4,320 nt of DNA. Origin: Escherichia coli (GTDB taxonomy: Bacteria > Pseudomonadota > Gammaproteobacteria > Enterobacterales > Enterobacteriaceae). Each line of letters begins with the position of its first letter. Position 1 is the first letter of the stretch. Where the stretch lies: the NCBI RefSeq assembly GCF_003334315.1, contig NZ_QOWR01000100.1, one strand, 5' to 3'. The notes under the pieces are model-generated. The model was not told the DNA's origin. It did no database searches and worked only from the letters and a program-made list of their open reading frames with translations. Of this stretch, positions 2,262 to 4,290 are shown in pieces. A program made the position numbers and the translations under genes.

Positions 2262-3747
2262 GTTTCACCCGCGAGGGCGCGGCGGTGGCGCCGGTCCGGT
2301 GGATTATCTGCTGGGGAAAGACCGACAGCGCGACGGCGCCACCGTTCTGCAGGGGAAGCCGGAAGAAGTCAGGGAGCTTATCGACGCCTCGCCCTACGCA
2401 AAAAAGTACACATCCGGCGTCCTGTCCTTTGCCGAAAAGGATTTACCGCCCGGGCAGCGCGAAAAGCTGATGGCGAGCTTTGAACGGGTTCTGATGCCCG
2501 GACTCGATAAAGACCAGTACAGCGTGTTGTGGGTTGAGCACCAGGATAAGGGGCGGCTGGAGCTGAACTTCCTGATCCCGAACACGGAGCTGCTGACCGG
2601 CAGGCGTCTCCAGCCGTATTACGACCGCGCCGACCGTCCGCGCATTGATGCCTGGCAGACCATCGTGAACGGCAGGCTGGGGCTGCATGACCCGAACGCG
2701 CCTGAAAACCGGCGGGCGCTGGTCACGCCGTCCGCGCTGCCGGAAACGAAGCAGGAAGCCGCTCAGGCAATTACACGGGGTTTACTGGCCTTAGCCTCGT
2801 CCGGGGAGCTGAAAACCCGCCAGGACGTCACTGAGGCGCTGGAAAGCGCAGGTTTTGAGGTGGTACGCACCACAAAAAGCAGCATCAGCATTGCCGACCC
2901 GGACGGGGGGCGAAACATCCGACTGAAGGGAGCCATCTATGAACAGTCTTTTAACGCTGGCAAAGGACTTAGAGCAGAAATCGAAAGCGCAGCAGCAGAG
3001 TACCGGCGAGATGCTGAAAGCCGCATTCAGCGAGCACGAGAAGTCTGTCAGAGCGGAACTGAGCGAAAGCGAGAAGAGAATCAGCGCCGCCATCCTCGAC
3101 CACGACCGGAAGCTGTCCTCAGCCATGAGCCAGCGCACGAAAGGCATGGTGCGTATGGTCAGCCAGACGTGGCTGACCATCGTCCTGGTGTCTGCACTGC
3201 TGACAGCATCGGGCGCAAGCATTCTGTGGTGGCAGGGGCAGCAGATACTCGACAATTACACGACTATCCGGGAGCAGAAGCGCACGCAGGCCATGCTGTC
3301 CGAGAGGAACAGCGGCGTGCAGCTCTCGACCTGCGGAGAGCAGAGACGCCGCTGCGTGAGGGTGAACCCGGAAGCGGGACGGTTCGGAGAGGATTCGAGC
3401 TGGATGATACTGGCGGGGAAATAGCACATGACGGAGCTGGAAAGACAGTTGCTGAGCGCATTAGAGCAGCTACAGCAGGACTACTCGAAAAGGCTGGACG
3501 AGTGGGAGAACGCCTTCGCGGAATGGCGGACGATGTCTGGTCTTATGCAACGGGAGAACGCGGCGCTGAGCGAGCGCGTCACGGGCTTGAGCAGGCAGGT
3601 GCAGAGTTTGAGCGATCAGCTGCGCCGGTTGTCGAAAGGCTGAACTCGATTGAAGCACACAGGCAGCAGGAGCGGGCGGCGCAGCATCAGAAAACGCTGG
3701 AGCTGGAACGATCGCAGCGGCAGAAAGGTTTTGAGCTTGGAATGTAG
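2251..3747 (+). CDS. mbeA: Relaxase MbeA/MobA (ColE1-type, HEN family), 498 aa
   Basis: N-terminus MIVKFHPRGRGGGAGPVDYLLG, with the catalytic Tyr in VDYLLG at residue 19, and WVEHQDKGRLELNFLIP carrying the His/Glu/Asn residues, match ColE1 MbeA as recalled. The ATG at 2251 overlaps the mbeC stop by 11 nt. The track ORF starts at 2200, but the conserved N-terminus begins at 2251. Confidence 0.85.
   Translation: MIVKFHPRGRGGGAGPVDYLLGKDRQRDGATVLQGKPEEVRELIDASPYAKKYTSGVLSFAEKDLPPGQREKLMASFERVLMPGLDKDQYSVLWVEHQDKGRLELNFLIPNTELLTGRRLQPYYDRADRPRIDAWQTIVNGRLGLHDPNAPENRRALVTPSALPETKQEAAQAITRGLLALASSGELKTRQDVTEALESAGFEVVRTTKSSISIADPDGGRNIRLKGAIYEQSFNAGKGLRAEIESAAAEYRRDAESRIQRAREVCQSGTERKREENQRRHPRPRPEAVLSHEPAHERHGAYGQPDVADHRPGVCTADSIGRKHSVVAGAADTRQLHDYPGAEAHAGHAVREEQRRAALDLRRAETPLREGEPGSGTVRRGFELDDTGGEIAHDGAGKTVAERIRAATAGLLEKAGRVGERLRGMADDVWSYATGERGAERARHGLEQAGAEFERSAAPVVERLNSIEAHRQQERAAQHQKTLELERSQRQKGFELGM
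2939..3424 (+). CDS. mbeB: Mobilization protein MbeB/MobB, encoded entirely within mbeA in the +1 frame
   Basis: MNSLLTLAKDLEQKSKAQQQSTGEMLKAAFSEHEKSVRAELSESEKRISAAILDHDRKLSSAMSQRT... matches ColE1 MbeB as recalled. SD GAAGGGAG ends 6 nt before the ATG. A hydrophobic segment WLTIVLVSALLTASGASILWW suggests membrane anchoring. Confidence 0.75.
   Translation: MNSLLTLAKDLEQKSKAQQQSTGEMLKAAFSEHEKSVRAELSESEKRISAAILDHDRKLSSAMSQRTKGMVRMVSQTWLTIVLVSALLTASGASILWWQGQQILDNYTTIREQKRTQAMLSERNSGVQLSTCGEQRRRCVRVNPEAGRFGEDSSWMILAGK
3428..3643 (+). CDS. mbeD: Mobilization / entry-exclusion-like protein MbeD/MobD, nested within mbeA in the +1 frame
   Basis: MTELERQLLSALEQLQQDYSKRLDEWENAFAEWRTMSGLMQRENAALSERVTGLSRQVQSLSDQLRRLSKG matches ColE1 MbeD as recalled; predicted coiled-coil-like heptad pattern. 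Starts one codon after the mbeB stop, in the same frame. Confidence 0.7.
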   Translation: MTELERQLLSALEQLQQDYSKRLDEWENAFAEWRTMSGLMQRENAALSERVTGLSRQVQSLSDQLRRLSKG

Positions 3748-3771
3748 TTAATCAATGAAAAGGGATGCGTT

Positions 3772-4290
3772 ATGAAGTGTTTCTGGGCTTGCTCAGTCTC
3801 AGTAGTTTTGGTTATGTCATTTACAGTCGCTTCTGCGGAGAACATTACACACACAAAACCGTTAGCCAGGAGCGACTTATATCTTACCTGTAAAGGTTAT
3901 CAGGTGAAGGGGGCGTCTGTAATTAACGTCGAGAAACCTTCTTACCTTGAAGGTACAGGTGAGCAGGTTGAGTTTGCAATCATTTCTCTCGGTGATGCAT
4001 CTGATGGACTCAAGGTTTTTTTTGATTCATGGGGTTTTTCTCCTTTTGGATTGATTGAAAGTCATGTAATGCATGAGCACTGGTCTTTAGTTCATGTTGG
4101 GGGGCGTGTTTCAGTCAAGGGTGAAAAGATTGATTATTCATTTGTAGATAACCAGCCACAGGAGGGTGGGAGCTATAAACCCAAAACAGGTGTGTTCCTG
4201 TATGGCTGCATTAACTCTGATAAAAGGCCATCTTGGGTCGAAAAAATCTACACAAGAACAGGCGTGTTTCGAGGGGGCATAGAAGACTAA
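3772..4290 (+). CDS. Hypothetical secreted (periplasmic/exported) protein, 172 aa, Sec signal peptide; function unknown
   Basis: Full ORF. N-terminus MKCFWACSVSVVLVMSFTVASA|ENI is a typical Sec signal with an A-S-A cleavage motif. GAAAAGGGA lies upstream of the ATG. The start is only 24 nt after the mbeA stop on the same strand. The mature protein has two Cys (possible disulfide) and a His cluster HVMHEHWSLVH. The region is AT-rich relative to the backbone (not separately counted for this gene). Confidence 0.7.
   Translation: MKCFWACSVSVVLVMSFTVASAENITHTKPLARSDLYLTCKGYQVKGASVINVEKPSYLEGTGEQVEFAIISLGDASDGLKVFFDSWGFSPFGLIESHVMHEHWSLVHVGGRVSVKGEKIDYSFVDNQPQEGGSYKPKTGVFLYGCINSDKRPSWVEKIYTRTGVFRGGIED

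What the first reader, a model, noticed from the sequence alone, without database searches (positions are those of the whole stretch)
3747..3772. No terminator between mbeA and the downstream secreted-protein gene
The 24-nt gap (ttaatcaatgaaaagggatgcgtt) holds only a ribosome-binding site, and no hairpin is evident. The cargo gene is therefore probably an operon extension of mbeCABD, which would tie its expression to mobilization gene expression.
Basis: seen in the sequence. Interest (0 to 1): 0.45.

Follow-up and report, generated by a model that had tools for sequence, protein, structure and literature searches.

The report
Promoterless secreted-protein gene behind mbeA
On this small ColE1-type plasmid, a gene for a secreted protein of unknown function sits 24 bases behind the mobilization relaxase gene with only a ribosome-binding site in between, so it is most likely read from the same transcript; this is an ordinary operon layout, conserved in related plasmids but never tested by experiment.

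Summary
The window is the circular 4245-bp Salmonella plasmid pK plus a 75-nt wrap. The mbeA stop (3745-3747) and the ATG of a 172-aa ORF (3772) are separated by exactly the quoted 24 nt. That gap holds a moderate Shine-Dalgarno site, no hairpin and no terminator-like site.

The 370 nt upstream hold no sigma-70-like promoter. The best score is 3.2 bits, below 99% of shuffles, against 10.6-10.7 for the plasmid's own RNAI and RNAII promoters.

Homologues at 53-100% identity sit directly behind the mbeA stop in diverged plasmids, with gaps of 23-37 nt, even where mbeA is only a remnant. The last seven mbeA codons are inherited together with the ORF. dN/dS is 0.17-0.27, so the gene is real.

"Cargo" is the wrong word. 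The ORF lies between mbeA and the cer site, inside the backbone, whereas variable cargo lies beyond cer.

Co-transcription from upstream (mob promoter and/or RNAII read-through) is the best explanation, at about 0.65 confidence, but no transcript data exist. The protein belongs to a tiny orphan family. It has a signal peptide, two invariant cysteines and a predicted small beta-barrel; its function is unknown. Interest is low to moderate.

The parts
981..1009 (+). RNAII (replication primer) promoter, TTGAGA-17-TAATCT. It is co-directional with the mob genes and a possible source of read-through.
   Evidence: Top + strand hit of my sigma-70 PWM scan (10.6 bits). It lies just upstream of the RNAI complement. 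The region 974-1856 aligns to the ColE1 ori region at 72.6% identity.
1022..1122 (-). RNAI antisense copy-number regulator
   Evidence: Rfam RF00106, 99.2 bits against a gathering score of 47. Its promoter TTGAAG-18-TAAACT is the top - strand PWM hit at 10.7 bits.
1735..1781 (+). Candidate mob promoter(s) in the oriT/bom-like region (TTCACT-17-CAACAT and GTGCCA-16-TACACT). These are candidates only.
   Evidence: PWM scores of 8.4 and 7.6 bits are the best + strand hits between ori and mbeC. The placement near oriT rests on the alignment to ColE1 and on the precedent of a MobC-autoregulated promoter next to oriT in RA3 (PMC4175270). No start site has been mapped.
1917..2261 (+). mbeC (MobC-family RHH relaxosome accessory protein). 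RefSeq starts it at ATG 1938, but TTG 1917 has the strong SD.
   Evidence: RefSeq annotation of the identical plasmid. The SD is CAGGAGG at -10.3 kcal/mol before 1917, against -2.6 before 1938. Pantoea homologues are called at 114 aa with PF05713/PF21983.
2251..3747 (+). mbeA relaxase, intact at 498 aa
   Evidence: NF047848 at 914.5 bits, covering profile positions 1-496 of 497. The 'partial pseudogene' flag in RefSeq is not borne out by the sequence.
2939..3424 (+). mbeB, nested in another frame of mbeA
   Evidence: ORF list and RefSeq annotation.
3428..3643 (+). mbeD, nested in another frame of mbeA
   Evidence: NF033829 at 110 bits, cut-off 60.
3724..3747 (+). Lineage-specific tail of mbeA (KGFELGM + TAG), inherited together with the downstream ORF
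   Evidence: Homology with other ColE1-like plasmids stops at about window 3723-3726. Their MbeA ends ...Y(N/D/H)GPSL* instead. In every displayed record that has this tail, the match runs on into the ORF or stops at a record end.
3748..3771 (+). 24-nt intercistronic gap. The SD-like AAAAGGGAT at 3758-3766 is its only recognisable element.
   Evidence: for the sequence and SD; for the absence of a hairpin or terminator. The purine-rich SD is kept in all homologous junctions.
3772..4290 (+). ORF172: a secreted protein of unknown function, with a signal peptide at about 3772-3837 (MKCFWACSVSVVLVMSFTVASA|E)
   Evidence: dN/dS is 0.17-0.27 against 10 homologues. The N-terminal hydrophobic segment with an A-x-A motif is conserved and there are two invariant Cys. 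It hits phrog_31425 at 1.7e-28 and nothing in Pfam, NCBIfam or PADLOC. The AF2 model has pLDDT 75 and shows a beta-barrel with a C-terminal helix.
191..238 (+). Core of a cer-like XerCD multimer-resolution site (XerC arm 211-221, centre 222-227, XerD arm 228-238). Read-through from ORF172 would enter it.
   Evidence: It aligns to the ColE1 cer core at 3889-3938 on the same strand. The region 130-279 is strongly structured (z -3.1). The orientation relative to RNAII is the one reported as invariant in PMC2831885.
249..283 (.). GC hairpin GCCGCC-TGTAAT-GGCGGC (249-266) with a U-containing tail. It is the probable end of the + strand unit (and of Rcd) and also lies just 3' of the convergent ORF195.
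   Evidence: Fold. The tail is too U-poor to pass the terminator scan, so this is an inference.
275..862 (-). ORF195, a predicted lipoprotein (…AISGC…). It is convergent and lies in the variable slot beyond cer. It is not part of the unit and is listed only as its boundary.
   Evidence: ORF list. It hits phrog_7678 at 2e-19. It is absent from the 4018-bp relatives that keep ORF172.

Best explanation
ORF172 is the promoterless last cistron of the + strand transcription unit that carries mbeC-mbeA(B,D). RNA polymerase starts upstream, at a mob promoter near oriT and possibly also at the RNAII primer promoter by read-through. It passes the mbeA stop codon without meeting a terminator. Ribosomes start independently at the AAAAGGGAT Shine-Dalgarno site 5 nt before the ATG at 3772. 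The product is exported by its signal peptide. Transcription then runs into the cer site from its accessory-sequence side and probably ends at the 249-266 hairpin. Shown here: the anatomy, the lack of promoter and terminator signals, the conserved junction and purifying selection. Inferred: that one transcript spans the junction, which promoter feeds it, and the export of the protein.
For: (1) The gap is 24 nt, unstructured and holds an SD. (2) No terminator-like site lies on the + strand from 1204 to the window end, and none lies at 12 homologous junctions. (3) The best sigma-70 PWM score in the 370 nt upstream is 3.2 bits, lower than 99% of dinucleotide shuffles (mean 6.8). The same PWM ranks the known RNAII and RNAI promoters first on their strands at 10.6 and 10.7 bits. 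The best + strand score anywhere in 1790-3771 is 5.8. No extended -10, sigma-E-like or sigma-32-like site is present. (4) The region is G-rich, not C-rich (C/G 0.53-0.85), and only 24 nt are untranslated, so Rho loading is unlikely. (5) Synteny holds widely. Homologues at 90% (L002, L007), 68% (Pantoea L008/9/11), 67% (Nissabacter L015), 65% (L021) and 53% (L018) identity all follow the mbeA 3' end. Where the stop is kept, the gap is 24-37 nt. MbeA and ORF172 identities fall roughly together. (6) Other ColE1 relatives that carry co-directional genes behind mbeA have 66-268-nt gaps holding promoter-like hits of 5.6-10.8 bits, unlike this junction. (7) dN/dS of 0.17-0.27 shows the gene is maintained.
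Against: There are no transcript data of any kind. A PWM cannot exclude weak, activator-dependent or alternative-sigma promoters. One sigma-54-like match (TGGAAAGACAGTTGCT, 3438-3453) exists. Copies that left the mob context kept 120-315 nt of mbeA 3' sequence (Klebsiella large plasmids L006 and L025-29; L019/20). That could mean a cis element there is needed, although it could equally be simple hitch-hiking. The promoter-like hits upstream of fully detached copies (L012 10.1, L017 9.2, L019 7.6 bits) are not significant once composition is controlled (p 0.08-0.30), so they add little. GC drops from about 60% to about 43% at the junction, so the ORF has a different origin from the mob genes.
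Confidence: 0.65

Rival explanations
1. ORF172 is read through from upstream, but mainly from the constitutive RNAII primer promoter rather than from a regulated mob promoter. Its level would then follow replication-primer transcription and copy number, not relaxosome autoregulation.
For: RNAII (promoter 981-1009, 10.6 bits) points the same way as mbeC-A-ORF172, and no + strand terminator-like site is predicted between 1204 and the ORF. PMC2831885 treats RNAII read-through into downstream cer sites as a real phenomenon in ColE1-like plasmids. The candidate mob promoters score only 7.6-8.4 bits.
Against: The ORF lies about 2.7 kb from the RNAII start, beyond ori, where primer processing and R-loop formation remove many transcripts (established ColE1 biology, not tested here). 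The mob genes need their own expression control, and in RA3 a MobC protein autoregulates its promoter next to oriT (PMC4175270). Nothing here measures either flux.
Confidence: 0.2
2. ORF172 has its own promoter, embedded in the 3' end of mbeA and non-canonical or activator-dependent, so it is expressed independently of the mob genes.
For: Detached copies keep 120-315 nt of mbeA 3' sequence in front of an intact ORF. A block at 3688-3723 is invariant among five diverged plasmids. A sigma-54-like match lies at 3438-3453.
Against: The best sigma-70 score is 3.2 bits, in the lowest 1% of shuffles. Only two weak -10-like hexamers occur in 3300-3771, and no extended -10. The conserved block is coding sequence for MbeA (…TLELERSQRQ…). 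The Yersinia intermedia copy keeps only the stop codon plus the gap and still has an intact ORF. In Klebsiella the remnant is fused in frame to another upstream ORF, so the gene is again a downstream cistron.
Confidence: 0.12
3. The juxtaposition has no expression consequence. The ORF is effectively silent, or is decoupled by polarity, in this plasmid, and is kept only by selection in other contexts.
For: The SD is only moderate (-5.1 kcal/mol). GC content marks it as foreign to the mob genes.
Against: dN/dS is 0.17-0.27 among plasmid copies that all share the mbeA-linked context. The exact protein is recorded on at least 1000 contigs. No terminator or rut-like stretch is present.
Confidence: 0.05

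Closest known systems
ColE1 mobilization operon mbeC-mbeA with nested mbeB and mbeD (NC_001371)
   Same: The gene order and nesting are the same, and so is the orientation relative to RNAII/ori and cer. MbeA is 55% identical and MbeD 63%.
   Different: In ColE1 the cer site follows mbeA directly, and the next genes (exc2, exc1) are convergent. ColE1 has no homologue of ORF172 and carries rop between oriT and mbeC, which pK lacks.
Other small ColE1-like plasmids with co-directional genes behind mbeA (3223-bp SMR/EmrE plasmids, 4760-bp lpxO plasmids, a 4648-bp GGDEF plasmid)
   Same: A non-mob gene lies downstream of mbeA on the same strand, with no predicted terminator in between.
   Different: Their gaps are 66-268 nt. 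The SMR and lpxO gaps are AT-rich and hold promoter-like hits of 9.6-10.8 bits; the GGDEF gap holds a cer core and scores only 5.6. Their mbeA keeps the usual …GPSL* end. The pK junction has only 24 nt, nothing promoter-like, and an altered mbeA tail.
mobC-nic operon of IncU plasmid RA3 (PMC4175270)
   Same: An RHH MobC protein and a relaxase are transcribed as one unit from a promoter adjacent to oriT, and MobC represses it. This is the model for how the expression of a distal cistron would be tied to relaxosome proteins.
   Different: It is a different relaxase family and plasmid type, and it has no extra secreted-protein cistron. Autoregulation has not been tested for pK or, in the literature I could read, for ColE1.
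Small periplasmic beta-barrel proteins (PliC/MliC/PhiA lysozyme inhibitors, NlpE N-domain, Neisseria ACP/NHBA barrels)

Membership tests
Polycistronic operon (distal cistron of mbeCABD) | Same strand and a short intercistronic distance | tested here: met
   The gap is 24 nt on the + strand.
Polycistronic operon (distal cistron of mbeCABD) | No transcription terminator between the cistrons | tested here: met
   No terminator-like site is found. Fold z scores are +0.5 to +1.5. There is no C-rich rut-like stretch.
Polycistronic operon (distal cistron of mbeCABD) | No separate promoter for the distal gene | tested here: inconclusive
   No sigma-70, extended -10, sigma-E-like or sigma-32-like site is found. 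The best PWM score is 3.2 bits, in the lowest 1% of shuffles. Sequence scans cannot exclude weak or activator-dependent promoters.
Polycistronic operon (distal cistron of mbeCABD) | Gene order conserved across diverged replicons | tested here: met
   The same junction is present in pK-type, 4018-bp, Hafnia, Pantoea and Nissabacter plasmids and in metagenomic contigs, at 53-100% ORF identity.
Polycistronic operon (distal cistron of mbeCABD) | A single RNA spanning the junction | not testable with these tools
   This needs RT-PCR, RNA-seq or a Northern blot. No such data were found in the papers searched.
ColE1-type mobilization module | MbeA relaxase and MbeD matching the curated family models | tested here: met
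   NF047848 at 914 bits against a cut-off of 500, and NF033829 at 110 bits against 60.
ColE1-type mobilization module | MbeC (MobC/RHH) upstream, and MbeB nested in mbeA | tested here: inconclusive
   RefSeq names both on the identical plasmid, and Pantoea homologues carry PF05713. My NCBIfam scan gave no hit for either.
ColE1 exclusion/accessory genes (Exc1, Exc2 lipoprotein, MbeD) | ORF172 is similar in sequence to one of them | tested here: not met
   tblastn of ORF172 against ColE1 gives no hit, and NCBIfam gives no hit.
MliC/PliC periplasmic lysozyme inhibitors | A family HMM match, or a strong fold match | tested here: not met
phrog_31425 (phage protein family of unknown function) | HMM match | tested here: met
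   E-value 1.7e-28, covering residues 10-161. Homologues at 33% identity occur in two Klebsiella phage records of 84 and 120 kb.
cer-type XerCD multimer-resolution site (element downstream of ORF172) | XerC and XerD arms around a 6-8-bp centre, in the same orientation as RNAII | tested here: met
   Window 191-238 aligns to the ColE1 cer core, and the XerD arm is identical. The orientation agrees with PMC2831885. The accessory ArgR/PepA region was not tested.

The most novel reading that the evidence does not exclude
ORF172 is not a passenger but a fifth functional gene of this mob module. It would be a periplasmic protein whose dose is set by the relaxosome-controlled transcript. It might act in exclusion or envelope protection during mobilization, or as an inhibitor- or immunity-like barrel against an incoming lytic enzyme. 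Its presence would define a distinct sub-lineage of ColE1-type mob operons that carry a built-in secreted factor.
Probability: 0.15. Interest if true: 0.55.

Novelty: new variant of a known kind. Interest (0 to 1): 0.3.

Why it matters
If the ORF is transcribed with mbeCABD, its expression follows plasmid copy number and whatever controls the relaxosome genes. It would then be a widespread hitch-hiking secreted protein: the exact sequence is recorded on at least 1000 contigs of Salmonella, E. coli, Klebsiella and others. The case also shows a second insertion slot in ColE1-like plasmids, between mbeA and cer, where a gene can be expressed without bringing a promoter. There is a practical side too. 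RefSeq marks mbeA as a pseudogene in identical copies of this plasmid and, in the pK record, truncates the ORF's signal peptide. Automated annotation therefore hides both the operon and the secretion signal.

Tried and rejected
- **Built-in promoter scan.** It found no promoters in the whole window, missing even the RNAI and RNAII promoters. It is too strict, so I replaced it with my own PWM, validated on those two promoters.
- **Detached copies gaining promoters.** Copies of the ORF that left the mob context have promoter-like hits of 7.6-10.1 bits. After composition-matched shuffling these are not significant (p 0.08-0.30). I keep this only as a weak hint.
- **First AlphaFold run.** With 15 close homologues it failed (pLDDT 31). 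Adding 7 distant members gave a usable model (pLDDT 75).
- **Sequence and family searches.** Pfam, NCBIfam, PADLOC and PDB sequence searches found nothing for ORF172. A profile search of 1.84 billion representatives found only the family itself, 9 hits.
- **Rfam.** At a permissive threshold it found nothing in the gap or in the cer region.
- **ORF172 as ColE1 Exc1/Exc2/'MbeE'.** Rejected, because there is no similarity.
- **ATG 3814 as the true start (PGAP in NC_003456).** Rejected, because it has no SD, the Met is not conserved, and it would remove the signal peptide.
- **Literature.** Searches for transcript mapping of ColE1-type mob operons or of pK found nothing usable. Varsaki 2009 (PMC2648203) is not held.
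Full report
**What the window is.** The 4320 bases are a circular 4245-bp plasmid plus a 75-nt wrap: bases 1-75 equal 4246-4320. 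It is 99.9-100% identical to Salmonella Enteritidis plasmid pK (NC_003456.1) and to unnamed 4245-bp plasmids of E. coli and Salmonella.

The + strand carries, in order:
- the RNAII promoter at 981-1009, the top hit of my PWM at 10.6 bits, with RNAI antisense at 1022-1122 (Rfam, 99 bits);
- an ori/oriT region that aligns to ColE1;
- mbeC at 1917/1938-2261;
- mbeA at 2251-3747, with mbeB (2939-3424) and mbeD (3428-3643) nested in other frames;
- the 172-aa ORF at 3772-4290;
- a cer-like XerCD site, core 211-238.

A convergent lipoprotein ORF lies at 275-862 on the minus strand. MbeA matches the curated MbeA model end to end (914 bits) and MbeD matches its model at 110 bits.

**The observation.** The TAG of mbeA is at 3745-3747 and the ATG of the ORF is at 3772. 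AAAAGGGAT at 3758-3766 pairs with the 16S 3' end at -5.1 kcal/mol, 5 nt from the ATG. That is the same strength class as the mbeA and mbeD sites.

The gap folds at -0.2 kcal/mol. Stretches of 71, 111 and 141 nt around it fold worse than their shuffles, with z of +1.1 to +1.5. The terminator scan reports no + strand site between 1204 and the window end.

The start at 3772 is the right one. The family alignment is conserved from Met1. The alternative ATG at 3814, used by PGAP in the pK record, has no SD, is not conserved, and would delete the signal peptide.

**Is there a promoter for the ORF?** The built-in scan is too strict, since it misses even the RNAI and RNAII promoters. I therefore used a sigma-70 position-weight matrix that ranks those two known promoters first on their strands, at 10.6 and 10.7 bits.

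In the 370 nt before the ATG the best score is 3.2 bits (TTGAGC-17-AATGAA). That is lower than 99% of dinucleotide shuffles of the same stretch, whose mean is 6.8. The best + strand score anywhere between 1790 and 3771 is 5.8. There is no extended -10, sigma-E-like or sigma-32-like site, and only two weak -10-like hexamers occur in 3300-3771. One sigma-54-like match lies at 3438-3453, inside the start of mbeD.

The region is G-rich rather than C-rich (C/G 0.53-0.85), and only 24 nt are untranslated. Rho-dependent termination is therefore unlikely.

**Comparative evidence.** The ORF belongs to a very small family. There are 24 proteins in the word-index search, and only 9 representatives among 1.84 billion in a profile search. 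All named members are Enterobacterales or Klebsiella phage records, apart from one sequence labelled Vibrio cholerae.

I fetched the genomic context of the diverged members and located mbeA, mbeD and the ORF by tblastn.

| Context | ORF identity to pK | What lies upstream | Gap (nt) |
|---|---|---|---|
| 4018-bp plasmids | 90% | mbeA stop | 24 |
| Hafnia plasmid | 90% | mbeA stop | 24 |
| Pantoea plasmids | 68% | mbeA stop | 36 |
| Nissabacter plasmid | 67% | mbeA stop | 37 |
| Metagenomic contig L021 | 65% | mbeA stop | 36 |
| Rep3 plasmid L019/L020 | 67% | frameshifted last ~105 codons of mbeA | 36 |
| Klebsiella IncFIB/HI1B plasmids (L025-29) | 78% | last 41 mbeA codons, fused to a DUF2251-like ORF | 23 |
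| Contig L018 | 53% | decayed mbeA/mbeD remnant (to MbeA residue 482) | not measurable |
| Yersinia intermedia L012 | 81% | only the stop codon and gap remain | – |
| Contig L017 | 55% | alcohol dehydrogenase gene | 102 |
| Phage and phage-like copies L023, L024, L030 | 26-40% | GIY-YIG nuclease gene (annotated in L030) | 72-84 |

The junction sequence …CAGAAAGGTTT(T/C)GA…GGAATGTAG-TAATCAA…AAAGGGA…ATG is recognisable throughout the mob-linked set. None of these junctions has a terminator-like hairpin, and the mob-linked ones score 3.2-6.1 bits for promoters. MbeA and ORF identities fall roughly together. dN/dS of the ORF is 0.17-0.27 for all but the closest comparison, Hafnia at 0.49 with dS only 0.07.

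Detached copies show promoter-like hits of 7.6-10.1 bits. These are not significant after composition control, so I do not lean on them.

**Where the module boundary lies.** Other ColE1-like plasmids, for example the 3223-bp SMR plasmids, lose similarity to pK at window 3723-3726, which is 7 codons before the mbeA stop. Their MbeA ends …Y(N/D/H)GPSL*, whereas the pK lineage ends …QKGFELGM*. So the ORF, the gap and the last codons of mbeA are inherited as one piece.

In ColE1 the cer core follows mbeA directly, with ColE1 3889-3938 matching pK 191-238. The same is seen in a 4648-bp Enterobacter plasmid.

Relatives that carry co-directional genes behind mbeA (SMR, lpxO, GGDEF) have 66-268-nt gaps. 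The SMR and lpxO gaps are AT-rich and hold promoter-like hits of 9.6-10.8 bits, while the GGDEF gap holds a cer core and scores only 5.6.

ORF172 therefore occupies an unusual slot between mbeA and cer. The variable cargo of this plasmid group, ORF195 in pK and other genes in the 4018-, 4251- and 4461-bp relatives, lies beyond cer. "Cargo" is not the best description of ORF172.

**Mechanism.** The best-supported reading is a promoterless distal cistron. Polymerase starting upstream passes the mbeA stop, and ribosomes load at the ORF's own SD.

Which upstream promoter matters is open. Candidates near oriT score 7.6-8.4 bits. In RA3, a MobC protein represses the mobC-relaxase promoter next to oriT (PMC4175270). 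That is the precedent for "expression tied to mobilization genes". However, RNAII is co-directional and no + strand terminator is predicted before the ORF.

Transcription leaving the ORF enters cer from the accessory side. PMC2831885 reports this orientation as invariant and argues that it tolerates read-through. A GC hairpin at 249-266 is the likely stop.

**The protein.** It has an N-terminal hydrophobic segment ending A-S-A|E and two invariant cysteines, together with conserved YLEGxGEQ, W, H and RPxW positions. It has no hit in Pfam, NCBIfam, PADLOC or the PDB sequences. It does hit phrog_31425, a family of unknown function.

With 22 sequences AlphaFold gives pLDDT 75 and pTM 0.69. The model is a beta-barrel of about nine strands with a C-terminal helix, and residues 1-32 are disordered.

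Fold searches return only generic small periplasmic barrels:
- NlpE-like and C-type lysozyme inhibitor domains, at Foldseek E of 3e-3 or worse.

Function is unknown, and the inhibitor-like resemblance is a lead, not a classification.

**Verdict.** The operon-extension reading is the most likely one, at about 0.65 confidence, and is strengthened by conserved synteny, but it is untested. The arrangement is a lineage-specific variant of the well-known ColE1 mob operon, not a new kind of system. Interest is low to moderate.

Noticed in passing
window 2251-3747: RefSeq/PGAP annotates mbeA on identical plasmids as an 'incomplete, missing C-terminus' pseudogene. The sequence is in fact one intact 498-aa ORF that matches the MbeA model end to end. 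The flag is probably an artefact of the nested mbeB and mbeD genes.
   Followed up: yes
window 3772 vs 3814: The RefSeq record of pK starts the downstream ORF at the internal ATG 3814 (158 aa), which removes the signal peptide. Other records use 3772. SD strength and conservation support 3772.
   Followed up: yes
window 1917-1938: mbeC is annotated from ATG 1938, which has no SD (-2.6 kcal/mol). The in-frame TTG at 1917 is preceded by CAGGAGG (-10.3 kcal/mol). Pantoea homologues are called at 114 aa. The true start is probably 1917.
   Followed up: partly
window 191-283 (and about 60-190 upstream): This is a cer-like XerCD site: GGTGCGCCCAA-GGGATG-TTATGGTAAAT at 211-238, with a 6-bp centre against 8 bp in ColE1. 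It lies in a strongly structured region (z -3.1) and is followed by the hairpin at 249-266, possibly an Rcd-like transcript and terminator. Rfam has no match.
   Followed up: partly
window 275-862 (- strand): This 195-aa predicted lipoprotein (lipobox ISGC) has no Pfam or NCBIfam hit but matches phage family phrog_7678 (2e-19). It sits in the variable slot beyond cer and is absent from the 4018-bp relatives.
   Followed up: partly
window 3438-3453: A sigma-54-like GG-N10-GC match, TGGAAAGACAGTTGCT, lies at the start of mbeD. About 0.06 such matches are expected by chance in the stretch scanned (my estimate), and the site is in conserved coding sequence.
   Followed up: no
L006, L025-L029 (Klebsiella IncFIB/HI1B plasmids, up to 310 kb): A fragment comprising the last 41 mbeA codons, the gap and the ORF is embedded in large plasmids. 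It is fused in frame to a DUF2251-like ORF. The ORF is intact in many isolates and frameshifted in pINF177.2.
   Followed up: partly
L012-L014 (Yersinia intermedia, 254-kb contig): This copy of the ORF keeps only the mbeA stop codon plus the gap, with an improved SD (AAAGGAGG). It lies next to IS110-family transposases, and the upstream sequence has a TTCAAA-17-AATAAT promoter-like hit of 10.1 bits, p 0.08 against shuffles.
   Followed up: partly
L030 (Klebsiella phage ST13-OXA48phi12.3), L023, L024: Distant homologues at 26-40% identity sit directly behind a GIY-YIG nuclease gene (annotated as such in L030) in large phage or phage-like elements. This is again a downstream-cistron position.
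   Followed up: no
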